DNA of 64,000 nucleotides from a virus. The notes below the pieces were generated by a model. The model was not told the origin of the DNA. It saw nothing but the letters and a program-made list of their open reading frames with translations, and did not search any database. Position 1 is the first letter of the stretch, and each line of letters opens with the position of its first letter. The DNA lies in the IMG/VR virus record IMGVR_UViG_3300045988_111022; one strand, written 5' to 3'. This document shows positions 52,434 to 61,003 of this stretch, piece after piece. The translations under genes and the position numbers were made by a program.

Positions 52434-53468
52434 ATGGCGGATGCACGTTCGGGAGCGGAACTGGCCGACTATTCCAAGGTGGCATTTTCGGTTGGGGGCG
52501 TTCGGCAGGAAATTTCGATTGACGATTGGCGAAATGGATGGGCCGCAATCGTTGGCGGCTTGAACGGAAAACCGACAAGTCAACAGTTTAACATGGTGTT
52601 CTATATTCTGTCTGTGTTGCTAAATCAGAACATTTCGGATGTTTCGGCGGTTAAGAGTACGGCAAACGCAGCATTGCCGAAAGAAAGCTTTACGGCGGAA
52701 CAGATTGTGGCGCTGCTTTCTGAGTATGGGCGTATGTCTGGATGCAATGCAGATATGCTGGACGGAAAGCACGCGGACGCATTTGCTGCGGATAAGCACA
52801 GCCATTCGGCAAGTGACATTACAAGCGGGAATTTGCCGATTGAACGCGGCGGTACTGGCGCTGGCACCTCTGCTGATGCGTGTCGTGCTCTTGGCGCTAT
52901 GCGGAACACAGGCGGTACCTTTACGGGAACGGTCTATTTTGCAAATGGCACAGCGCACTACGTCAGCTCTGCGGGAGATGCGCATTTTAGATCGGTGACT
53001 GCGAGCGAGGACATTCATGCAAAACGAGTGTTTGAAGCGGTCTACAACGACTACGCGGAGCTGATGCCCCGCGGCGAGGACACCGAACCGGGTGATATTA
53101 TTGCGCTGGATACTAACAGCCGGCAAGAAAAATATGTCAAAGCAACCAATCTTTCGAGCCGGATTGCTGGAATCCATTCGGACGAATACGGAATGCTGAT
53201 CGGCGGAGAGCGGGTCAATGATGGGGAGGATTTCTTGAAAAAGAATCTTCCCCGTTTTATTCCTGTTTCGCTTGCCGGACGTGTCCACACAAAGGTCATT
53301 GGCCCGGTAAACACGGGAGACTGCATTGTGCTTTCCCATATTCCGGGGGTTGGCCGTGCGGCAAAACCGTGTGAATATGTTGACCCGTGCAAAGTGGTTG
53401 GTTATGCGGTTGAGGGTGACAATTTGACTGAACAGCGTCGGCTTAAAGTCAGAGTGAGAGGTGCTTAA
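52434..53468 (+). CDS. Tail fibre protein
   Basis: DKHSHSASDITSGNLPIERGGTGAGTSADACRALGA is the classic fibre motif. The C-terminal region resembles an intramolecular-chaperone/peptidase G2-type domain. Confidence 0.75.
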   Translation: MADARSGAELADYSKVAFSVGGVRQEISIDDWRNGWAAIVGGLNGKPTSQQFNMVFYILSVLLNQNISDVSAVKSTANAALPKESFTAEQIVALLSEYGRMSGCNADMLDGKHADAFAADKHSHSASDITSGNLPIERGGTGAGTSADACRALGAMRNTGGTFTGTVYFANGTAHYVSSAGDAHFRSVTASEDIHAKRVFEAVYNDYAELMPRGEDTEPGDIIALDTNSRQEKYVKATNLSSRIAGIHSDEYGMLIGGERVNDGEDFLKKNLPRFIPVSLAGRVHTKVIGPVNTGDCIVLSHIPGVGRAAKPCEYVDPCKVVGYAVEGDNLTEQRRLKVRVRGA

Positions 53469-54580
53469 TGGCTAACTGGGGGCAAAAAGTCTATCCCTCG
53501 GACTACTCCGAAATCAAAGCCTTGCTCAAGGCTGAGATAGGGAGACGCGGGAAAACGGAGGGAACAGCGCGAGGGCAGAGCGTCGGCAGCATGGCGAGCT
53601 ATAACGACTCTGCATACGACTTCTCGACACAACCGAAAGCAGGCGCGTACATCAAAAACGAGCACATCCAAAAAATTACGAAGCCTTTGGATGCAATCAA
53701 AGGAACATCGACTACGCCCGGGAATGGGGTGCAAATCACAGCGAGCAGGCTGAGTCAAGCAGCGGCGGTGTTGAGTGAGCTGAGCGCAATCCCGGAAACC
53801 GCTACATCAAGCGGGTGTGCTGGCCGCTGTTCAGGCCTATGTTCTACGGGATGCAATACGGCTTGCACGAGCTGTACAGGCTCCTGTACTGGGAGCTGCA
53901 CAGGGTCTTGCGTGGCATCGTGCGCCAATGATTGCGCTGGCGGATGCAAGGGAAGCTGCCAGGGAACGTGCATGGGGTCCTGCACGGGAACCTGCACTAG
54001 AGCGTGTGCAAATAACTGCTCCAGCACTTGCACGGGGTCCTGTACGGGGTCCTGCACGGGTTCGTGTACGGGAACGTGCACAAAGGCGTGTGCGAATGAT
54101 TGTGCCGGCACTTGCGCGGGGTCCTGTACGGGAAGCTGTACGGGAAGCTGCACTGGAAGTTGCATCGGAGGCTGTAACACAACTTGCACGAAGAATTGCG
54201 CAAATAACTGTTCTGGTTCCTGCTCCGGCGGATGTTCGGGCGGCTGCTATGGTTCGTGTGATGGGTGCTCTTCGACTTGTGAGGGCGGCTGTGGAAGCAG
54301 CTGTTCTGATAATTGCTCAAGTAAATGTATCCAGCAATGCAGTTCGACGTGTGCGAATGACTGCTCCGGCAGCTGTGTGAACCTTGGTTGTGCATTCAAC
54401 TGCGGAAGTGACTGCTCTAACCATTGCTCCGGCGGCTGTTCTGGAGGCTGTGGTTCTCAATGCAGAAGCGGCTGTGACGTCTTTTGCACGGGGTGCAGTT
54501 CAACGTGCGCAGATGACTGCTCCGGATCCTGCAGCGGTGGTTGTAGTGGCTGCTCTGGCTTCCTGTGGAGCAAATCGTGA
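53468..54580 (+). CDS. CXXX-repeat cysteine-rich protein (370 aa, 63 Cys)
   Basis: Cys-free N-terminal 116 aa, then Cys at nearly every 4th residue from aa 117 to 362 (CTGSCTGSCTGSC...). TAATG coupling to the fibre gene. Confidence 0.85.
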   Translation: MANWGQKVYPSDYSEIKALLKAEIGRRGKTEGTARGQSVGSMASYNDSAYDFSTQPKAGAYIKNEHIQKITKPLDAIKGTSTTPGNGVQITASRLSQAAAVLSELSAIPETATSSGCAGRCSGLCSTGCNTACTSCTGSCTGSCTGSCVASCANDCAGGCKGSCQGTCMGSCTGTCTRACANNCSSTCTGSCTGSCTGSCTGTCTKACANDCAGTCAGSCTGSCTGSCTGSCIGGCNTTCTKNCANNCSGSCSGGCSGGCYGSCDGCSSTCEGGCGSSCSDNCSSKCIQQCSSTCANDCSGSCVNLGCAFNCGSDCSNHCSGGCSGGCGSQCRSGCDVFCTGCSSTCADDCSGSCSGGCSGCSGFLWSKS

Positions 54581-54597
54581 TGAAAGGAGAAATCCAA

Positions 54598-55179
54598 ATG
54601 GAGACAACGCTTCATTTTGCACAGAATGCAGATGCAGGAACGGAAGAATCCTATCTCAGGAATCTTCCGCTTCTGAAGCTGCTTGCAAAAGAGAACATTG
54701 AAGCAGACGATTGGAGCGTCCTGCTTGCGGCAACGCCGAATAATGAGGACAAGTTGTTGTGGTGTCTTGGTTACACGGGTACCCTCTGTGCGCTGGACGC
54801 AACGGACTTTGATGATTGGGTGGTTTACTGCTCTACGGTGGTTCTGTCTGCGCTGGAGGCGTGCGGGGTTGAAGCGCCCGATGAACGGAAGAATCTTCTG
54901 TCCATCGGGCTGGCGGCGCGCACATTCAATTTTTCTGGCAACCCGGTGACAAAAAATCTGAAATGTGCAGAAACGATTCAAGGCGCGGCAAGCTATAACT
55001 GCACTGAGGATGCCGACATTTTTTCGATGTGGTATCTTTTGCAGGTGCTTACTGAGTATCTGCGGCTGGACTTCAACGGCAATCTCCGGGAACTGATTGA
55101 CGCCATGAAAACCATGAACAAGATTCGTGACCGTTACCGTCAGATCGCAGACCGCCTCCCGAAGATGGATGCCTGCTAA
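54598..55179 (+). CDS. Hypothetical protein within the CXXX/rSAM cluster (193 aa)
   Basis: AAGGAG RBS. ATG at 54598. Confidence 0.6.
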   Translation: METTLHFAQNADAGTEESYLRNLPLLKLLAKENIEADDWSVLLAATPNNEDKLLWCLGYTGTLCALDATDFDDWVVYCSTVVLSALEACGVEAPDERKNLLSIGLAARTFNFSGNPVTKNLKCAETIQGAASYNCTEDADIFSMWYLLQVLTEYLRLDFNGNLRELIDAMKTMNKIRDRYRQIADRLPKMDAC

Positions 55180-55189
55180 GGAGAAGAAT

Positions 55190-55492
55190 ATGAAAGCCAT
55201 TAAATTGACCACGGCGGAAAGCGAAGCGGTGGAGCGAGCTTACTATGAAGCAAGCTCTTTTGAAGCGCTGATGGCGGTTCTGTGCCGCCAGCTTAACGCG
55301 GATGCAAATCCGGAAACCGCAAAGGTGATCCGCCATTATGCAGAACTGTGCCGTGCGGCTCAAATGAAGCTGAAGATGGTACAGGAAATGGTGATCTCCC
55401 GGTATCTTGACCATCAGACGTCGGCGGGTGTGCAGTACAGGTTTGATTTTGTTCGAGAGGAGGTCGTTCTCCTTGAAGCAACGGCGAATTGA
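55190..55492 (+). CDS. Small accessory protein of the CXXX-repeat modification cluster (100 aa)
   Basis: AAGGAGAAG RBS. Sits immediately upstream of the rSAM gene. Confidence 0.6.
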   Translation: MKAIKLTTAESEAVERAYYEASSFEALMAVLCRQLNADANPETAKVIRHYAELCRAAQMKLKMVQEMVISRYLDHQTSAGVQYRFDFVREEVVLLEATAN

Positions 55493-55505
55493 GGATTATG
55501 GAAAC

Positions 55506-56816
55506 ATGGTCCAAAGGCTGTATGCGCGCGATACTGCGGCTGAGAACCGCGTCTGTTGCCGGAACATTACGTTCCAAGTGACAAGCGGGTGCAATCTCAG
55601 GTGCTCATACTGCTATGAGCACCACAAGAGCGTTGAGCGAATGAGCATCGAGACCGGGCGAAAGGTCGTAGATTACATCCTTGACCTGTACGAGAAAAAT
55701 GAGTCCGATTTCGTAAATCAGAATACGCGGGCAGTTGTGCTGGATTTTATTGGCGGAGAGCCATTGCTTGAAGCCGAACTGATTGAGCACATCTGCGACT
55801 ACTGGTTCTCAGAGTGCTACCGCCGAGAGATTCCGCTTGCGCCGTTCACGAGGATCAGCTTTGCGACGAATGGCAAGTTGTGGTTTTCTTCGGCGGCGCA
55901 GCACCTGTTCGCAAAATACCATGAGATGATGTCTGTGACTGTCAGCATTGACGGCGTTCAAGAGTTGCATGACAAGTACAGAGTGGATGAGCATGGGATT
56001 GGCAGCTTTTCGCTGGCATGGAAGGCATTTCAGGCAGGAAAAAAGGATTTTGGGTGGCTTACGTCCAAGATGACCTTTGTTCCGGGATCTTTTCAGTACA
56101 TTGCCGACAGCATCAAAATGATGCTGGATGAGGGATGCGTGGAAATCGCTTGCAACTACGCTTACGAACCTGTCTACACTCCCGAAGATGGCCGTACACT
56201 GTATGAACAGATGCAGATGGTCTCTGACTACATTATTTCCCGACGAATGGATGTCACGATTACGATGCTGGACGACCTTTTGGGCGGACAGGCTAAGGAT
56301 GACAATAATTTCTGCGGCGGTACGGGAGCGATGCTGTCGTTTGCACCGGATGGGAGTGCCTATCCCTGCATTCGGTACGCTCCGATTTCCATTGGCGAGG
56401 AAAAATCGCAGAAAGTCCGTTTCGGCAGCATCTATGATGGACTGTATGCCACGGATGCCCAGCGTCAGGCAAAAGCGGAATTGGATGCCATCACCCGTAC
56501 ATCTCAATCTCCGCAGGAGTGCTTAGAGTGCCCTGTATCAGCTGGCTGTGGCTGGTGTAGCGGCCTTAACTATGAATTATTCGGTACGGCCAATAAACGC
56601 TCCACAGCCATTTGTTGGGCGCACAAAGCGCGTGTTCTGGCAAGCTGTTACTATCACAATCGCCGTTATCTGGAAATCGGAGACCGTCTCCCAATCGAGG
56701 TGAGGCTTCCGGCCGAAGATGGGCTGAAGATTCTGCCCGCCGAGAAATGGGCGGAGCTGATGCACATTGAGACAGCGGCGCTCATGAAGTTTGCTGATGA
56801 AGTCGGGATTAGTTGA
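55506..56816 (+). CDS. Radical SAM / SPASM-domain peptide maturase
   Basis: CNLRCSYC (CX3CX2C) at nt 55590-55613. C-terminal SPASM-type CLECPVSAGCGWC plus a further Cys cluster (NFCGG...YPC). Confidence 0.88.
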   Translation: MVQRLYARDTAAENRVCCRNITFQVTSGCNLRCSYCYEHHKSVERMSIETGRKVVDYILDLYEKNESDFVNQNTRAVVLDFIGGEPLLEAELIEHICDYWFSECYRREIPLAPFTRISFATNGKLWFSSAAQHLFAKYHEMMSVTVSIDGVQELHDKYRVDEHGIGSFSLAWKAFQAGKKDFGWLTSKMTFVPGSFQYIADSIKMMLDEGCVEIACNYAYEPVYTPEDGRTLYEQMQMVSDYIISRRMDVTITMLDDLLGGQAKDDNNFCGGTGAMLSFAPDGSAYPCIRYAPISIGEEKSQKVRFGSIYDGLYATDAQRQAKAELDAITRTSQSPQECLECPVSAGCGWCSGLNYELFGTANKRSTAICWAHKARVLASCYYHNRRYLEIGDRLPIEVRLPAEDGLKILPAEKWAELMHIETAALMKFADEVGIS

Positions 56817-56830
56817 AAGGAGGGAGCGCA

Positions 56831-57736
56831 ATGGCAATCCTCATTGCCGATACCAAGTTGGAGACCGAAACCGATGCTTGGTATATGTTCTATGCTGACA
56901 CAAAGGAAGACATACAAACATTGCCGACGAGTACATCTACAGGATCTTCTTATCGGGTAAGAAAGTATGCTCGACCGACGAGCGTTGCATACTGCATAGA
57001 AGAAGCAAGGCAGTATATGCTGGATAGCAAAGATCGGTGGCGCGCAATGTGCGGTCTTTCTGATAGCGTTTTGGATGCCTTGAGTAAAAGTGCTGCAGAA
57101 CTTTTGGCTATATGCAAGGACACGGAGAACTTTCGGGATGAAGCGGTGAAAAGTGCTGAAAAGGCAGAGAAAGATAAAGAAGCATCTGCTGCCAATGCTC
57201 TCGCTGCAGATAGAAGCGCGAAAAAAGCCAGTGAGAGCGAGGGCGTTGCTTCTCAAAAAGCAGAAAATGCGAAAGAAGCAGCAGAAGCTTCAAACAAATC
57301 CGCTGAAGAAGCATCGAAAAGTGCGGCAGGTGCACTTGCAAGTGAGCAGGCTGCGTCTGAGAGCGCACGACTTTCCTCTATTAGCGAAGCCGCTTCAAAA
57401 GATGCAATGAATGAGGCTAAAGATTTTTCAAATTCAGCGTCGAAATCTGCTAGAGAGGCTCTTGAATCAAAACGTGCTGCAGAAGACGCTGCCAATAGTG
57501 CCTCCGAATCCAGCCTTGCCGCCGCAAGTTCGGAGAGAGCGGCAACAGAAAAAGCGGCAGAATCATCTGAACTGGCAATAAGGACCGAAAAAAATGCAGA
57601 GTTATCAAAAGAAAGCAGTGAAACGGCTATTAAAGCAGCTGCAGAAGCAAAGAAAGCTCTGTCAATGCTGTCATTCGCTTTTGGAATCGATGATGAGGGC
57701 CGTTTTTCGCTGTTTGCGAAAAAATCTATAACATAA
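56831..57736 (+). CDS. Ala/Ser/Glu-rich coiled-coil fibre-like protein
   Basis: Long SA..A..SA..A low-complexity helix. GAAAGGAGGGAG RBS. Confidence 0.65.
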   Translation: MAILIADTKLETETDAWYMFYADTKEDIQTLPTSTSTGSSYRVRKYARPTSVAYCIEEARQYMLDSKDRWRAMCGLSDSVLDALSKSAAELLAICKDTENFRDEAVKSAEKAEKDKEASAANALAADRSAKKASESEGVASQKAENAKEAAEASNKSAEEASKSAAGALASEQAASESARLSSISEAASKDAMNEAKDFSNSASKSAREALESKRAAEDAANSASESSLAAASSERAATEKAAESSELAIRTEKNAELSKESSETAIKAAAEAKKALSMLSFAFGIDDEGRFSLFAKKSIT

Positions 57737-57811: not shown

Positions 57812-59542
57812 ATGGACGGTTGGGATTTTGTTGGTCATCCGGTGACGGATGAATCGGCAAAGGAAGCAATCGAGCAATTAAAAAGGCAAAACGACATTCT
57901 GACTGGCATAGCTGCCGGTAATGCTGGTGCTGAGTTCGTTGACGCAATCTTCGATGGCCTGTTGGATGGTCAGAACACGAGTGAGGTGTTCTGGAATTGG
58001 TGGCCACTGTCTACCGGAAACGGCGCGACAAAATACCAGCGCTTGGAGCGTTTCGCCAAGATGCTGGCCAAGTATACAAAAGGCAAAACCTACACCGTGC
58101 GCTTTTACGGCGATGATGTGAGTAGCGACTATACAGGCACTCCGCTGGATGACTTGGCGGACGGCCGTGAAGCTGCGCCGCTCCTGACGGATACAAGCCC
58201 TGAGACAGCGGATTGGTCTGAGGAAGACCCGTTTACATGGTATATCCGTGCGAATGCGCTTTCTCTGGAAGATGGCACCATGAATGTGCTGGCGCTGGAG
58301 GGCGAAGCAGAGTTTGACCTTTCGGGCGAGACGGCTCCCGTCTACTGCTTTGCGCTGGCGTTGACCATGAAAGAATGGGAGGACGGCACCTATATCTATA
58401 ACAGTTGGCGTACCTTCTCCGGCGGTGGCTATGAACCTATGGCTGGTGATGTAGCCCCGGACAAGAGCCGCCGCTGGCTGACATGGCACCCTGCGTTCCA
58501 TGGCGGTAAAAATTCCAAGGGCGGCATGACCAGCGGTGCCGGACTGCCCCCGATGCCGTGGACAAGCGCCAACGATGCCATCACTCTGGCTCGTAAAATC
58601 ACGGCTTATGATGCCTTGTGGACTGACTGCGACCAGCAGTATGTTTTGGCTCAGTGGCGGCTGCGCCATTGGACGCTGAGCAACAGCGGCAAGCTGGAGG
58701 GCTGCACGTCCTACAATTACCAGTATACCCCGGCGGTGGCCGAGACCGGAGTAAAGCGTGTGCTTGCGACGAAAGCGCAGGGCGCAAACTTCCTCGTGGG
58801 TTCTGCGGTATGTATGGGCGAGCGCGGCGAAAATACCAGCACAGACCGCAATTTGTCCTATAACCATGACATTTTCAACTGGGCCAAGATTTCCAGCATT
58901 ACCAATGTGACCGTGAACGATACGGAGTATGTGGCTCTGAACCTTGAGCTGGATGCTCCCATTGACACCACAACCACAATGCTGGTCTCTACTATGCCGT
59001 GGGAGTCCGGCACGACTGAGGTGGTTCCGGGTCACAGCGATGGATGCCGTGGTAATCTGACGAATGGCAAATATCCGTACCGCGTGGCGGGCATCGAGAT
59101 GCAGATTGGCGCATACGTCGAGCAGCTGGACCCTCTGTGGAAAGCAAGCCTCGTCGATGATGACCATTGGCATTACGATGTGTTCTCCTGCAAGAGCGGT
59201 GAGAAGCAGGTCGGTTCTATTTCTTCGGACTATGCCCAGACCGGCTCCTTCGACCTGAACGACAAGGCAACTTGGTCGTGGCATTATATCCGCAAGCTGG
59301 GCAAGCTTGGCGCGGAAGCCATGATGTATGAAAAGTTCAATGGCAGTGGCTCCACCTATGTACGGGCTGCGTTCATTTCGCCCGGTTCGGCGGGCGTGTA
59401 CGCCCCTTGGCGCGGTGGCAACCTGGATGACGGTGCTAACTGCGGCCTGCCTTGTGCGAATGGCAACAATGGCCCCGGCACGGCGAACTGGAACGGTGTG
59501 CCTCGGCATGCTGATGATAAAATAGCCCTCAAAAGGGCATAA
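57812..59542 (+). CDS. Receptor-binding / tail fibre protein with a C-type-lectin-like (DGR-target-like) C-terminus
   Basis: C-terminal ...PWRGGNLDDGANCGLPCANGNNGPGTANWNGVPR resembles variable regions of DGR targets. Confidence 0.7.
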   Translation: MDGWDFVGHPVTDESAKEAIEQLKRQNDILTGIAAGNAGAEFVDAIFDGLLDGQNTSEVFWNWWPLSTGNGATKYQRLERFAKMLAKYTKGKTYTVRFYGDDVSSDYTGTPLDDLADGREAAPLLTDTSPETADWSEEDPFTWYIRANALSLEDGTMNVLALEGEAEFDLSGETAPVYCFALALTMKEWEDGTYIYNSWRTFSGGGYEPMAGDVAPDKSRRWLTWHPAFHGGKNSKGGMTSGAGLPPMPWTSANDAITLARKITAYDALWTDCDQQYVLAQWRLRHWTLSNSGKLEGCTSYNYQYTPAVAETGVKRVLATKAQGANFLVGSAVCMGERGENTSTDRNLSYNHDIFNWAKISSITNVTVNDTEYVALNLELDAPIDTTTTMLVSTMPWESGTTEVVPGHSDGCRGNLTNGKYPYRVAGIEMQIGAYVEQLDPLWKASLVDDDHWHYDVFSCKSGEKQVGSISSDYAQTGSFDLNDKATWSWHYIRKLGKLGAEAMMYEKFNGSGSTYVRAAFISPGSAGVYAPWRGGNLDDGANCGLPCANGNNGPGTANWNGVPRHADDKIALKRA

Positions 59543-59758
59543 GCGTTTCATTGCGCCTGTGGCTTGACCACTAAGATCATGTTATACCGACACCATGCAG
59601 CTGAGCGTTTCGAGAGATACGGACGCATTGGTGAGAGCGTGGCCGCAGTTTTTGGGACTGCGTGGCGGCGAGTAGTAGAAATCCGTTCTGCCTGATTTAA
59701 GGCCGGGGACGGCAACCGAAAGTCGTTGAACATCAGCAAGTTTGGAGGCTTTAAGGAT

Positions 59759-61003
59759 ATGAAAACAAAGAGGTTCTTACAGCTCACGCACGCAATGTGT
59801 GAGCAGGCTGTCCTTGAAGCGTTTGATAAAAAATGGTTCCGCCGGGATTACCTCGCCACGGTGGAGAAATATGGAGGTGTGAGCCGTGCAGAATTATCGC
59901 GCGCCGCCCGGTTAAACGACTGGAATCTGCGTTTGGAAGTAGTGAACAGCATTGCTCTCGAAATGGAACAACGCGTGGAAGACCTTGTGGAAGGCGAGAC
60001 GGACGACCTCGACCTTGAACCTGTGAGCGTATTTTATCGAATTGATGGGATCAGCATGAAACGGCGTGAGCTGTCCAACTGCTGCCCGATGCACCAAGCC
60101 TTTGGACATTTGGCGGTGATTGGACTGCGGCCGCTGCTTCGCGCAAAATTGCTTCCGTATCAATTCGCCAGCATCCCCGGAAAGGGGCAGATTGCTCTAA
60201 AACGTCAGGTTGAGCGTTGGCTTCGCAGGAAAAGCCTTGGAATTCAACACGCAGTCAAGCTGGATGTGCAGGGAGCGTATGCCCATACGAAACAGGCTGT
60301 CGTGATGGATATTCTGCGGCGTGAGATTCCGGGTGCGACATGGTTGCTGGCGGTCATCAAATGCTTGCTAGCGATGGCACCGGGCGAGGGACTGCTCATT
60401 GGCGGATACCTCGAAGCGTGGCTTTTCAACCTTGTTGCCAGCTATATGCTGGTAAAGGTGTTGAGCTATGCAAAGACTCGCCGAGGAGCGTCTACGCCGT
60501 TTGTGACCCGCAGCGGCAGCTATATGGACGACCTTGTTCTACTTGGGCGACGATGGGCCGATATACAAAGTGCGGCCCGGAAATTGACTAAGTGGGCGCT
60601 GGCTGAATTTGGGCTGACCATAAAAACCGAGTGGGTTCGGGTGGATTTTCTAAGCGCGGCTGAAGAACATCAGCGCCGACACATGACTGGAGCGGCGAAA
60701 GGGTGTCCGGGCTTGGATATGGCTGGCTATGTGATGCACCGTACCTACACCACGATACGCCCCAGAATTTTTCTGAGGGCTCGGCGGCAGTACATTCGAG
60801 CCAAGGCTGATGTTTCACGAAATGGATATGTGCCGGTCTGGCGGTCATACAAGCTGGTCAGCTATAACGGCTATTTTGACTGGACAAAATCTCGTGCAAT
60901 CAGCGAAGCCCTAAAACAGAAAAAGCTGTTCACGGCCGCAAAAGTAGCAATCCGCGTAACGGCACAAAGAAATGCAATGAAGAAAGTGAGGATAGCAGCA
61001 TGA
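59759..61003 (+). CDS. Reverse transcriptase, DGR-clade-like
   Basis: KRRELSNCCPMHQAFGH, SIPGKGQ, KLDVQGAYAH, GLLIGGYLEAWLFNL, SYMDD (YMDD at nt 60521-60532), GLTIKTEW. Confidence 0.85.
   Translation: MKTKRFLQLTHAMCEQAVLEAFDKKWFRRDYLATVEKYGGVSRAELSRAARLNDWNLRLEVVNSIALEMEQRVEDLVEGETDDLDLEPVSVFYRIDGISMKRRELSNCCPMHQAFGHLAVIGLRPLLRAKLLPYQFASIPGKGQIALKRQVERWLRRKSLGIQHAVKLDVQGAYAHTKQAVVMDILRREIPGATWLLAVIKCLLAMAPGEGLLIGGYLEAWLFNLVASYMLVKVLSYAKTRRGASTPFVTRSGSYMDDLVLLGRRWADIQSAARKLTKWALAEFGLTIKTEWVRVDFLSAAEEHQRRHMTGAAKGCPGLDMAGYVMHRTYTTIRPRIFLRARRQYIRAKADVSRNGYVPVWRSYKLVSYNGYFDWTKSRAISEALKQKKLFTAAKVAIRVTAQRNAMKKVRIAA

What the first reader, a model, noticed from the sequence alone, without database searches (positions are those of the whole stretch)
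53468..56816. Giant CX3C-repeat protein plus radical SAM/SPASM maturase embedded in the tail-fibre module
The ORF at 53468-54580 has a Cys-free 116-aa N-terminal domain. This is followed by 63 cysteines between aa 117 and 362 (nt 53816-54553). About 57 of the 62 Cys-Cys spacings are exactly CX3C (CTGSCTGSCTGSC, CSGGCSGGC, CANDC and similar). Its start overlaps the stop of a canonical fibre gene (TAATG), and more fibre genes follow, so it looks like a virion component rather than a secreted peptide. Three genes downstream is a radical SAM enzyme with CX3CX2C and a SPASM-type C-terminal Cys cluster (55506-56816). Two small accessory ORFs lie in between (54598-55179 and 55190-55492). From memory, in-silico families named 'CXXX repeat peptide maturase / modification system protein' exist, but I know of no biochemical or structural characterisation. 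A phage structural context suggests rSAM-installed thioether or other cross-links, or metal clusters, that rigidify a fibre or shaft. That would be a new kind of virion post-translational chemistry. All six reading frames are open across the repeat, which will confuse gene callers.
Basis: partly seen in the sequence, partly recalled or inferred. Interest (0 to 1): 0.88.

Follow-up and report, generated by a model that had tools for sequence, protein, structure and literature searches.

The report
Radical-SAM-matured cysteine-repeat protein in phage fibres
A Faecalibacterium prophage carries, inside its tail-fibre operon, a protein with 63 cysteines spaced every fourth residue plus the enzyme predicted to modify it; if that protein sits on the virion, this would be a chemistry not known in phage particles.

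Summary
ORF 53468-54580 encodes 370 aa with 63 Cys at aa 117-362, and 57 of the 62 spacings are CX3C. Only the claim that all six frames are open is wrong.

The gene is under strong purifying selection (pN/pS 0.06; 0 of 63 Cys columns vary). It belongs to a fixed five-part module:
- a tail-fibre gene whose C-terminus is a Peptidase_G2-like domain
- the CX3C protein
- a 193-aa all-alpha accessory protein with no match to any solved structure
- a 100-aa accessory protein
- a radical SAM/SPASM enzyme whose best family match is NCBIfam TIGR04115, the CXXX-repeat maturase (308 bits, cutoff 350)

The module recurs in more than 140 gut-phage contigs and in Faecalibacterium genomes. It is present in 46 of 46 relatives found through a baseplate protein, so it behaves as a core gene set and not as sporadic cargo.

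An analogous cassette lies next to virion structural genes in the cultured jumbo phages SPN3US and phiEaH2. There the Cys-repeat ORFs are unannotated or called in the wrong frame.

The bacterial counterpart is Tat-exported and has different partner genes. Virion incorporation and the chemistry (I favour thioether cross-links) are inferred, not shown. I found no published characterisation.

Verdict: a new variant of a system known only in silico, and worth experiments.

The parts
52434..53468 (+). Tail-fibre gene (344 aa). Its stop overlaps the start of the CX3C gene (TAATG).
   Evidence: Residues 96-156 (HSHSASDITSGNLPIERGGTGAGT) match R-type pyocin tail-fibre structures 6CL5 and 6CT8, E about 7e-5. 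In other phages, N-termini of at least three unrelated types carry the same C-terminal domain.
53016..53465 (+). Conserved C-terminal 150-aa domain of the fibre, resembling the Peptidase_G2 intramolecular-chaperone (autoproteolytic) domain. The invariant motif D206-Y-A-E209 starts at nt 53049.
   Evidence: Six of 14 family members hit Pfam PF11962, best E 2.4e-4. The alignment has 46 invariant columns. In the 80 best viral relatives, the CX3C gene follows directly wherever the contig continues, and wherever enough downstream sequence is held the accessory genes and the radical SAM gene follow too. The domain occurs as a stand-alone 170-aa gene in a 250-kb phage contig.
53468..54580 (+). CX3C-repeat protein gene (370 aa), the presumed substrate.
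   Evidence: TIGR04114 27.3 bits (cutoff 20) and phrog_6085. pN/pS 0.06-0.09.
53468..53815 (+). Cys-free N-terminal domain (aa 1-116), specific to the phage versions.
   Evidence: AlphaFold2 predicts three helices at aa 10-27, 64-78 and 92-106, pLDDT 55-72. A profile of the domain finds 295 clusters among 1.84 billion representative proteins; 88 of the 97 representatives of at least 140 aa carry a Cys-rich tail. The bacterial counterparts have a twin-arginine signal peptide at this position instead.
53816..54553 (+). Cys-repeat region (aa 117-362). The consensus quartet is C-[T/S/A]-G-[S/T/G]. There is a weak 28-aa (seven-quartet) super-repeat at 53962-54144.
   Evidence: No confident AlphaFold2 fold, pLDDT about 33.
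54554..54577 (+). Short C-terminal tail with aromatic residues (SGFLWSKS).
   Evidence: Most of 15 diverse phage homologues end in a similar tail, for example GFLW, GFLF, GFMW, GSFW or GLWLY. Bacterial targets end in similar tails such as GGAIFVSY or VAYFG.
54598..55179 (+). Accessory protein acc193 (193 aa), all-alpha, specific to the phage system.
   Evidence: Conserved in position in nearly all loci. AlphaFold2 pLDDT 89.7, pTM 0.85, nine helices. No PDB structural match (best E 1.2, TM below 0.3). The only matches are uncharacterised phage proteins in BFVD. No hit in Pfam, NCBIfam, PHROGs or PADLOC.
55190..55492 (+). Accessory protein acc100 (100 aa), a possible counterpart of the bacterial TIGR04116 partner protein.
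   Evidence: Conserved in position with an invariant E-R motif. Fused to acc193 in jumbo-phage contigs. Profile-profile alignment to TIGR04116 members is end to end over 83 columns but weak: score 19.5, P 0.006, against 15.3 for the best of 20 column shuffles. No HMM hit.
55506..56816 (+). Radical SAM/SPASM maturase (436 aa from the ATG). The true start may lie upstream, for example TTG 55473, because the conserved EDYGN motif precedes the ATG.
   Evidence: TIGR04115 308.3 bits, E 9e-92, covering profile positions 2-359 of 359. phrog_1802. Best solved relative is CteB (5WGG/5WHY), E 1e-16, aligned from CteB residue 95 onward, so the enzyme has no N-terminal peptide-recognition domain. Cys motifs.
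56831..57736 (+). Downstream fibre-like protein (context). It has an Ala/Ser/Glu-rich coiled-coil middle.
   Evidence: The homologue in L064 (8289-9530) hits the tail-fibre family phrog_27381 at 1e-30. The gene is syntenic in 50 loci.
57812..59542 (+). Downstream 576-aa tail-module protein (context).
   Evidence: phrog_17147 at 709 bits and the 'tail protein' family phrog_5302 at 2.8e-6.

Best explanation
This is a phage-adapted CXXX-repeat radical SAM maturation system built into the tail-fibre operon of a temperate Faecalibacterium myovirus.

Shown:
- The 370-aa protein is a real, strongly constrained gene.
- It is always encoded together with a SPASM-type radical SAM enzyme of the CXXX-repeat maturase lineage, two small accessory proteins, and the conserved C-terminal domain of the fibre gene just upstream.
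- The set is universal in its phage clade.

Inferred, in order:
1. During late gene expression the radical SAM enzyme lacks a recognition domain of its own. It is helped by the 100-aa and 193-aa accessory proteins, which hold or present the substrate.
2. The enzyme works along the Cys-every-fourth-residue region in the cytoplasm. Most likely it converts cysteine thiols into intramolecular thioether cross-links to nearby backbone or side-chain carbons, as its closest characterised relatives do (PapB, CteB, QhpD).
3. The result is a compact, protease- and redox-resistant rod or knob.
4. In bacteria the equivalent protein has a twin-arginine signal and is exported already folded. In the phage that signal is replaced by a 116-aa helical domain, which I propose docks the modified protein onto the short tail fibre. 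The product would then be a distal fibre or tip component of the virion.
For: Gene reality and constraint.

Enzyme identity: TIGR04115 is the best hit at 308 bits over its full length. The next hits are thioether-forming maturases (PapB 145 bits, CcpM 91, SCIFF 81, QhpD-type 71). The best solved relative is CteB. The CX3CX2C and seven-Cys SPASM motifs are complete.

Target identity: TIGR04114 above cutoff. The periodicity and aromatic C-tail match the bacterial targets.

Fixed module, found from three independent seeds:
- From the radical SAM protein: 76 viral loci, with the CX3C gene upstream in nearly every locus that holds the upstream sequence.
- From the fibre C-terminal domain: 80 of 80 loci that have downstream sequence.
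- From the baseplate protein: 46 of 46, down to 58% identity.

Accessory genes are fused in one lineage.

Operon coupling: overlapping stop and start, ribosome-binding sites, and no promoter or terminator signal above shuffled controls.

Fibre context on both sides.

The module travels with fibres that have unrelated N-termini.

N-domain variants exist that are fused to a segment shared with tail-fibre proteins (P0203, phrog_38190) or to extra N-terminal domains (P0190, P0220).

Independent parallel: SPN3US and phiEaH2 have two or three CX3C ORFs directly after four paralogous virion structural proteins and before radical SAM genes whose best family is again TIGR04115.

Host and prophage.
Against: - No proteomic, structural or biochemical data exist for any member. 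I found no cultured phage with the Faecalibacterium-type system in the phage collection.
- AlphaFold2 gives no fold for the repeat, so rigidity is conjecture.
- The radical SAM score is below the curated TIGR04115 cutoff. The bacterial partners TIGR04119 and TatA/TatC are absent. Homology of acc100 to TIGR04116 is only suggestive.
- The repeat has no fixed acceptor residue such as the Asp of PapB substrates. Only 101 of 556 quartets contain Asp or Glu, so the thioether chemistry is argued by analogy only.
- The upstream conserved domain looks like an auto-cleaved assembly chaperone that leaves the virion in phi29. That complicates a simple docking model.
- In the 250-kb phage contig the neighbours are not recognisable tail genes.
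Confidence: 0.5

Rival explanations
1. Cargo or moron reading. The cassette makes a modified Cys-rich product that is not part of the virion, for example a secreted or intracellular peptide-like product for competition, host manipulation or lysogenic conversion. It merely sits in the cargo-prone region next to tail-fibre genes.
For: Homologous bacterial systems are chromosomal, Tat-exported and unrelated to phages. Small archaeal and bacterial relatives look like classical leader-plus-core peptides (L087). The region downstream of the fibres in this window also holds a reverse transcriptase of unclear role. Neighbours in the jumbo-phage contig are not recognisable tail genes.
Against: The cassette is present in 46 of 46 clade members down to 58% baseplate identity, which is unlike sporadic cargo genes. 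The start overlaps the fibre stop, and there are no separate promoter or terminator signals. There is no signal peptide, transporter or leader protease in the cassette. It is strictly co-inherited with the fibre C-terminal domain. It sits between fibre genes, not after them. The same arrangement follows virion structural genes in SPN3US-like phages.
Confidence: 0.22
2. Assembly-factor or metal-binding reading. The Cys-repeat protein is not covalently cross-linked. It binds metals or Fe-S clusters, or acts as a transient chaperone or scaffold for fibre assembly (it occupies the position of the P2 gene G fibre-assembly chaperone) and is absent from the finished particle. The radical SAM enzyme would carry out some other modification.
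For: The gene occupies the slot directly after the fibre gene, where P2-like phages encode their fibre-assembly chaperone (gene order J-I-H-G from established knowledge; order seen). Regular Cys spacing is also typical of metal-binding proteins. Tat export of the bacterial homologues is typical of cofactor-loaded proteins. The neighbouring Peptidase_G2-like domain is itself an assembly chaperone type.
Against: The closest characterised enzymes all act on the peptide itself to make thioethers. The repeat lacks His, Asp or hydrophobic residues that would organise clusters, and it is 88% strictly period 4. A 63-Cys, 370-aa chaperone with a dedicated maturase and two helpers would be an expensive transient factor.
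Confidence: 0.2
3. Artefact reading. The repeat is non-coding or a mis-called low-complexity stretch.
For: Gene callers often break it. A second frame is nearly open.
Against: pN/pS is 0.058 at pS 0.19. Zero of 63 Cys columns vary. Length is constant across alleles. The gene is conserved in more than 140 contigs with different nucleotide sequences. DNA-level tandem repeats are only modest.
Confidence: 0.01

Closest known systems
Bacterial CXXX-repeat radical SAM system (NCBIfam TIGR04114/04117 targets, TIGR04115 maturase, TIGR04116 partner, TIGR04119 SPASM-only maturase). It is defined in silico; I found no biochemical paper.
   Same: The target has Cys every fourth residue, small Gly/Ser/Thr residues in between, and an aromatic C-terminal tail. 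The radical SAM/SPASM enzyme belongs to the same lineage and lacks an N-terminal recognition domain. A protein of about 90-100 aa is encoded alongside.
   Different: The phage enzyme scores 308 bits against a cutoff of 350; a true bacterial member scores 630. The phage system has no TIGR04119 gene and no TatA/TatC. The twin-arginine signal is replaced by a 116-aa helical domain. It has an extra 193-aa protein with no match to any solved structure. It is coupled to a tail-fibre gene and its Peptidase_G2-like domain.
Ranthipeptide and SCIFF maturases PapB and CteB (thioether-forming radical SAM/SPASM enzymes)
   Same: PapB is the second-best family match at 145 bits, and CteB is the best solved-structure match. 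The auxiliary-cluster cysteines are the same. The substrates are Cys-rich.
   Different: Their substrates are short leader-plus-core peptides with fixed acceptor residues (Cys-X3-Asp for PapB, Cys to Thr for CteB; from established literature). CteB carries its own N-terminal recognition domain, which is absent here. All scores are far below the family cutoffs.
QhpD/QhpC of quinohemoprotein amine dehydrogenase
   Same: This is a precedent for a radical SAM/SPASM enzyme that installs several Cys thioether cross-links in a protein subunit before it leaves the cytoplasm (established knowledge). The family appears among the hits at 71 bits.
   Different: The QhpC substrate is small and has few cross-links. 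It is a redox-enzyme subunit with no repeat array and no phage context.
Cys-repeat plus radical SAM cassette of SPN3US-like jumbo phages (Salmonella SPN3US, Erwinia phiEaH2), noticed here
   Same: Two or three CX3C/CX2C-repeat ORFs lie directly after virion structural genes, followed by an unknown 295-aa protein and radical SAM genes whose best family is TIGR04115.
   Different: The radical SAM protein is only about 26% identical. The N-terminal domains are about 50 aa and unrelated. The 295-aa protein is unrelated to acc193 and acc100. There is a second, truncated radical SAM-like gene. No Peptidase_G2-like domain was seen.
phi29 gp12-type Peptidase_G2 intramolecular chaperone, and P2 / R-pyocin tail fibres with their downstream assembly chaperone
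   Same: The upstream fibre shares the conserved fibre motif with R-pyocin fibres. It ends in a domain that weakly matches PF11962. The CX3C gene occupies the position of the fibre-assembly chaperone gene.
   Different: The CX3C protein has no similarity to known fibre-assembly chaperones. No known fibre system includes a radical SAM enzyme.

Membership tests
NCBIfam TIGR04115 (radical SAM peptide maturase, CXXX-repeat target family) | Score at or above the curated cutoff of 350 bits | tested here: not met
   308.3 bits, E 9e-92, full-length alignment over positions 2-359 of 359. A genuine bacterial member (L002) scores 630 bits.
NCBIfam TIGR04115 (radical SAM peptide maturase, CXXX-repeat target family) | CX3CX2C radical SAM motif plus a complete SPASM auxiliary-cluster Cys set | tested here: met
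   C29/C33/C36, and C270, C288, C339, C342, C348, C351, C370. These align with the CteB SPASM cysteines.
CXXX-repeat modification system (TIGR04114-04119) | An adjacent target protein with the Cys-X-X-X repeat (TIGR04114, cutoff 20 bits) | tested here: met
   27.3 bits for TIGR04114 and 30 bits for TIGR04117 (cutoff 50). 57 of 62 spacings are CX3C.
CXXX-repeat modification system (TIGR04114-04119) | A TIGR04116 partner protein of about 90 aa | tested here: inconclusive
   No HMM hit for acc100 or for any of 16 homologues. Profile-profile alignment is end to end over 83 columns, score 19.5, P 0.006, above all 20 column-shuffled controls (maximum 15.3).
CXXX-repeat modification system (TIGR04114-04119) | A TIGR04119 SPASM-only 'CXXX repeat peptide maturase' gene | tested here: not met
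   Present in the bacterial locus L002 at 235 bits. No equivalent exists in the window or in the phage loci. acc193 is all-alpha and matches no family.
CXXX-repeat modification system (TIGR04114-04119) | A twin-arginine signal on the target, with linked TatA/TatC (seen in the bacterial loci examined here; not a curated criterion) | tested here: not met
   88 of 93 bacterial targets have an RRxF-type motif, and TatA/TatC lie next to L002. The phage target instead starts with a 116-aa helical domain.
PapB-family ranthipeptide maturase (NF047865) | Score at or above 340 bits, and a substrate with Cys-X3-Asp/Glu motifs | tested here: not met
   145 bits. Only 101 of 556 quartets contain Asp or Glu.
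SCIFF maturase (TIGR03974, CteB) | Score at or above 425 bits, and an N-terminal peptide-recognition domain | tested here: not met
   80.8 bits. The alignment to CteB starts at CteB residue 95, and the phage enzyme has only about 20 residues before its cluster motif.
Thioether-forming radical SAM chemistry (sactipeptide or ranthipeptide type) | Cys sulfur linked to a carbon, seen as a loss of 2 Da per link and non-alkylatable Cys | not testable with these tools
   Needs mass spectrometry or NMR on co-expressed proteins.
Pfam PF11962 Peptidase_G2 (intramolecular chaperone, autoproteolytic) | A match to the family model, and the acidic catalytic pair at the cleavage site | tested here: inconclusive
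   Six of 14 homologues match, best E 2.4e-4, but the window copy itself does not. D206 and E209 are invariant. The assignment of these as catalytic residues rests on my memory of phi29 gp12. There is no PDB sequence match.
P2 / R-type pyocin tail fibre | The conserved HxH ... ITSG.LP..RGG.GA fibre motif | tested here: met
   Residues 96-156 align to 6CL5, 6CT8 and 6CL6 at E 7e-5 to 8e-5.
Virion structural protein | Detected in purified particles | not testable with these tools
   Only genomic context is available.
Diversity-generating retroelement (considered for the neighbouring reverse transcriptase) | A template repeat and variable repeat pair near the reverse transcriptase | tested here: not met
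   No direct repeat was found between 57.5-61.7 kb and the rest of the window. The reverse transcriptase matches only generic models.

The most novel reading that the evidence does not exclude
Phages of at least two unrelated groups (Faecalibacterium P2-like temperate myoviruses and SPN3US-like jumbo phages) use a dedicated radical SAM/SPASM enzyme to install dozens of covalent cross-links in a Cys-every-fourth-residue protein. That protein becomes part of the tail fibre or another virion surface structure. This would be the first enzyme-installed radical cross-linking of a virion protein, and the first assigned biological role and material form for the CXXX-repeat family.
Probability: 0.35. 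Interest if true: 0.9.

Novelty: new variant of a known kind. Interest (0 to 1): 0.78.

Why it matters
Enzymes that modify peptides by radical chemistry are known from small natural products and a few enzyme subunits, not from virus particles. If this protein is a fibre component, it would add a new kind of post-translational chemistry to phage structural biology.

It may also explain how gut phages build adhesins that survive proteases and reducing conditions. It would give the first functional handle on the CXXX-repeat systems, which are abundant in gut Bacteroidales: the metagenome scan stopped at its 600-match limit, and 589 of those encode a relative.

The system is testable. A cultured F. 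prausnitzii strain carries a 95%-identical copy (L082). The genetically tractable phage SPN3US has an analogous cassette whose Cys-repeat ORFs are missing from its annotation, so earlier proteomic searches built on that annotation could not have found them.

There is a practical lesson as well: these genes are systematically mis-called.

Tried and rejected
- Nucleotide search of the 5.4-kb cassette against 50,697 phage records found no match. Protein searches found only two unannotated metagenomic records as close relatives.
- AlphaFold2 of the full CX3C protein gave no usable model for the repeat (pLDDT 33), so I did no fold search on it.
- A fold search of acc193 against the PDB found nothing. 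BFVD returned only its own uncharacterised family.
- I tested acc100 as a TIGR04116 homologue by HMM (no hit) and by profile-profile comparison (weak), and left it open.
- A diversity-generating retroelement explanation for the neighbouring reverse transcriptase was rejected for this window, because I found no template/variable repeat pair.
- Anti-phage defence models gave nothing meaningful.
- The promoter and terminator scan found nothing above shuffled controls.
- I looked for homology between the Faecalibacterium-phage N-domain or accessory proteins and their SPN3US counterparts and found none.
- Pfam on unusual N-domain fusion proteins found nothing.
- Eight literature searches found no paper on CXXX-repeat maturases or on radical SAM modification of phage structural proteins. 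The papers I read were irrelevant.
- I looked for clade members that lack the cassette, to see what replaces it. None turned up.

Full report
**Observation**

The ORF at 53468-54580 (+) encodes 370 aa. It has 63 cysteines, the first at residue 117 and the last at 362. Fifty-seven of the 62 Cys-Cys spacings are CX3C, four are CX2C and one is CX4C. The ATG overlaps the stop codon of the upstream gene (TAATG). The consensus quartet is C-[T/S/A]-G-[S/T/G].

Only the coding frame is free of stops; the others have 1, 17, 4, 2 and 4.

At the DNA level the array is not a recent slippage product. Tandem Repeats Finder sees only short 12-nt runs and one 84-nt (28-aa) unit in 2.2 copies at 77% identity.

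Eleven distinct alleles of the same 370-aa gene from related contigs give pS 0.19. pN/pS is 0.058 in the repeat and 0.094 in the N-terminal domain. No Cys column varies, while 18 of 183 intervening columns do. This is a real, strongly constrained protein-coding gene.

**Setting**

The window is a roughly 63-kb temperate myovirus-like prophage. It has an integrase, terminase, portal, tape measure, baseplate genes, fibre genes, a reverse transcriptase and a lysis cassette.

The host is Faecalibacterium. A genome scan found the radical SAM gene at 95% identity in the F. prausnitzii strain 2 chromosome, and at 60-80% in four Faecalibacterium MAGs.

**The enzyme**

The protein at 55506-56816 matches NCBIfam TIGR04115 ('radical SAM peptide maturase, CXXX-repeat target family') best and over its full length. 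The score is 308 bits (E 9e-92), below the curated cutoff of 350. The next hits are PapB (145 bits), CcpM, the SCIFF maturase and the QhpD-type maturase. Anaerobic sulfatase maturase scores only 58 bits.

The enzyme has CX3CX2C at C29/C33/C36 and all seven SPASM cysteines. Its best solved relative is the thioether-forming CteB (E 1e-16). The alignment begins at CteB residue 95, so the phage enzyme lacks CteB's N-terminal peptide-recognition domain.

**The module**

I seeded a scan of viral contigs with the radical SAM protein and obtained 76 loci at 48-99% identity. In nearly every locus that holds the upstream sequence, the order is the same: fibre gene, CX3C protein, a roughly 193-aa protein, a roughly 100-aa protein, radical SAM enzyme.
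- The CX3C protein varies from 140 to 372 aa, with 13 to 64 Cys.
- It keeps a conserved Cys-free N-terminal domain of about 115 aa and the first few repeats (SSGC.G.CSGLC.TGC). In most lineages it ends in a short aromatic tail.
- The baseplate genes and the N-terminal parts of the fibre are unrelated between lineages, with at least three fibre N-terminus types.
- The last 150 residues of the fibre are highly conserved, with 46 invariant columns.

That fibre domain weakly matches Pfam Peptidase_G2, the autoproteolytic intramolecular chaperone of phi29 gp12. Six of 14 members match, best E 2.4e-4.

Seeding with this domain gave 80 loci at 57% identity or more. In every one with room downstream, the CX3C gene follows immediately, and the accessory genes and the radical SAM gene follow wherever enough sequence is held.

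In a 250-kb phage contig the domain is a stand-alone 170-aa gene and the two accessory proteins are fused into one 296-aa protein. So the domain belongs to the module, not merely to the fibre.

Seeding with the baseplate protein gave relatives down to 58% identity. All 46 with enough downstream sequence carry the cassette. That is the distribution of a core gene set, not of sporadic cargo.

**Fibre context**

- Residues 96-156 of the upstream protein match R-type pyocin fibre structures.
- The downstream 307-aa protein belongs to a family that hits tail-fibre PHROGs.
- The next gene hits a PHROG annotated as tail protein.
- Genes are tightly packed with ribosome-binding sites, and there are no promoter or terminator signals above shuffled controls.

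**The accessory proteins**

Neither accessory protein matches Pfam, NCBIfam, PHROGs or PADLOC.

The 193-aa protein gives a confident AlphaFold2 model: pLDDT 89.7, pTM 0.85, nine helices. The model has no similarity to any PDB structure (best E 1.2). It matches only uncharacterised phage proteins in BFVD.

The 100-aa protein aligns end to end with the bacterial TIGR04116 partner in profile-profile comparison, but weakly. The score is 19.5 (P 0.006), against at most 15.3 in 20 column-shuffled controls. I leave this homology open.

**Comparison with the bacterial system**

One 'phage' record (MT837480.1, locus L002) is really a Bacteroidales-type chromosomal locus. Its gene order is: Tat-signal CXXX target, TIGR04115 enzyme (630 bits), TIGR04119 SPASM-only protein, TIGR04116, TatA, TatC.

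A metagenome scan with that enzyme stopped at its 600-match limit, and 589 of those matches encode a relative, some on megabase-size contigs. In the 80 best loci kept for analysis, 88 of 93 targets carry a twin-arginine motif, and the targets shown end in aromatic tails like the phage proteins.

The phage system therefore shares the target type and the enzyme lineage, and possibly the small partner. It lacks TIGR04119 and Tat export. It replaces the signal peptide with a helical domain: AlphaFold2 predicts three helices at pLDDT 55-72. It adds the 193-aa protein and the fibre linkage.

A profile of the N-domain finds 295 clusters among 1.84 billion representative proteins. Of the 97 representatives of at least 140 aa, 88 have a Cys-rich tail. 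Most exceptions are frame-shifted gene calls. A few variants are informative:
- P0203 joins the N-domain to a segment (phrog_38190) that also occurs in a 1159-aa tail-fibre protein.
- P0190 and P0220 add extra N-terminal domains.

**An independent parallel**

The weaker phage hits of the radical SAM protein are SPN3US-like jumbo phages. I translated the DNA upstream of the SPN3US radical SAM genes.
- There are two Cys-repeat ORFs of 130 and 134 aa, with 21 and 20 Cys, mostly CX3C, and a short third one.
- The first ORF is not annotated. The annotated 'hypothetical protein' SPN3US_0166 is a wrong-frame call over the second.
- Erwinia phage phiEaH2 has the same ORFs conserved in the Cys frame, again under wrong-frame annotations.
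- The ORFs lie directly after four paralogous virion structural proteins, gp167-170.
- They precede a 295-aa unknown protein and two radical SAM genes. The best family for the larger one is again TIGR04115 (125 bits).

The N-domains and the 295-aa protein are unrelated to those of the Faecalibacterium phages. So this is an analogous arrangement built on a homologous enzyme. The same link to virion structural genes has arisen, or been kept, in very different phages.

**Mechanism**

What is shown: a constrained target gene, a cognate maturase lineage, two dedicated partners, strict linkage to the fibre gene, and universality in the clade.

What is inferred:
- The enzyme modifies the repeat, helped by the small proteins in place of a built-in recognition domain.
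- The chemistry is thioether cross-linking. I argue this by analogy with PapB, CteB and QhpD. The lack of a fixed acceptor residue weakens the analogy.
- The N-domain attaches the product to the fibre, making it a virion component.

The Peptidase_G2-like domain may be an auto-cleaved assembly chaperone, a docking site or a processing factor for the CX3C protein. I cannot tell which.

Rivals are a non-virion cargo product, a transient assembly factor or metal-binding protein, and an artefact. The last is excluded by the selection analysis.

**Literature**

Eight full-text searches found nothing on CXXX-repeat maturases or on radical SAM modification of phage structural proteins. My recollection that these NCBIfam families were defined only in silico is consistent with that. 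It is not proof that no study exists outside the library.

**Verdict**

The key claims of virion incorporation and cross-link chemistry remain untested.

This is a new variant of a known, in-silico-defined kind of system. It sits in a context that would be new biology if confirmed, and tractable experimental systems are identified here.

Noticed in passing
L253 594-986 and 997-1401 (Salmonella phage SPN3US, JN641803.1, complement 143828-144220 and 143413-143817); L255 2141-2524, 2536-2934 and 2979-3185 (Erwinia phage phiEaH2, JX316028.1): Cultured jumbo phages carry two or three unannotated CX3C/CX2C-repeat ORFs (127-134 aa, 20-21 Cys) between virion structural genes and their radical SAM genes. 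The annotated 'hypothetical proteins' there (for example SPN3US_0166) are wrong-frame calls over the repeats.
   Followed up: partly
window 59726-61003 (+), with 57812-59542 upstream: A 425-aa reverse transcriptase (phrog_1423) sits beside a 576-aa tail-module protein, which looks like a diversity-generating retroelement. However, I found no template/variable repeat pair anywhere in the window, and the enzyme matches only generic reverse-transcriptase models. Reverse-transcriptase genes recur at this position in many related loci.
   Followed up: partly
L002 (MT837480.1, 'Bacteriophage sp.', 6.8 kb): This record in the phage collection is really a Bacteroidales-type chromosomal CXXX-repeat locus: Tat-signal target, TIGR04115, TIGR04119, TIGR04116, TatA, TatC. 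Near-identical copies lie on megabase-size metagenome contigs. The record is probably mislabelled as viral.
   Followed up: partly
P0005, P0007, P0009, P0024, P0113, P0123, P0131, P0138 and others: Most public protein entries for the CX3C gene are truncated at the start of the repeat or continue in a wrong frame (Leu/Tyr/Arg-rich or Val/Ala-rich tails). Some are chimeric with lysin or accessory-gene sequence. This points to assembly and gene-calling failures over the repeat.
   Followed up: partly
L170 9484-9996 (250-kb phage contig ERZ27261136 k119_114462): The Peptidase_G2-like domain that ends the fibre in the window occurs here as a stand-alone 170-aa gene directly before the CX3C gene. 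The two accessory proteins are fused into one 296-aa protein.
   Followed up: partly
window 54554-54577; bacterial targets in L002, L172-L178: Phage and bacterial CXXX-repeat targets both end in a short aromatic or hydrophobic tail after the last Cys (GFLW, GFLF, GFMW; GGAIFVSY, VAYFG). It could be a recognition or capping element. It is unexplained.
   Followed up: no
window 54598-55179: The 193-aa accessory protein gives a high-confidence all-alpha AlphaFold2 model (pLDDT 89.7) with no match in the PDB. It may be a new fold.
   Followed up: yes
L087 443-712 (Methanomethylophilaceae archaeon MAG): An 89-aa ORF with a C-terminal CX3C run (CVGCGRQCSYGCSSSCKGTCAMGCKGGC) lies just upstream of a distant radical SAM relative (28% identity). 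This looks like a classical small leader-plus-core form of the same theme in an archaeon.
   Followed up: no
window 53962-54144: The repeat has a higher-order 84-nt (28-aa, seven-quartet) period. It is marked by recurring C-T-[K/R]-A-C-A-N-[D/N]-C segments and may reflect a structural super-repeat.
   Followed up: no
window 55407-55506: The conserved N-terminal motif of the radical SAM family (EDYGN.VQRLY) starts before the ATG at 55506. The true start may be an upstream TTG or GTG (for example 55473) that overlaps the end of the 100-aa gene, as in related loci.
   Followed up: partly
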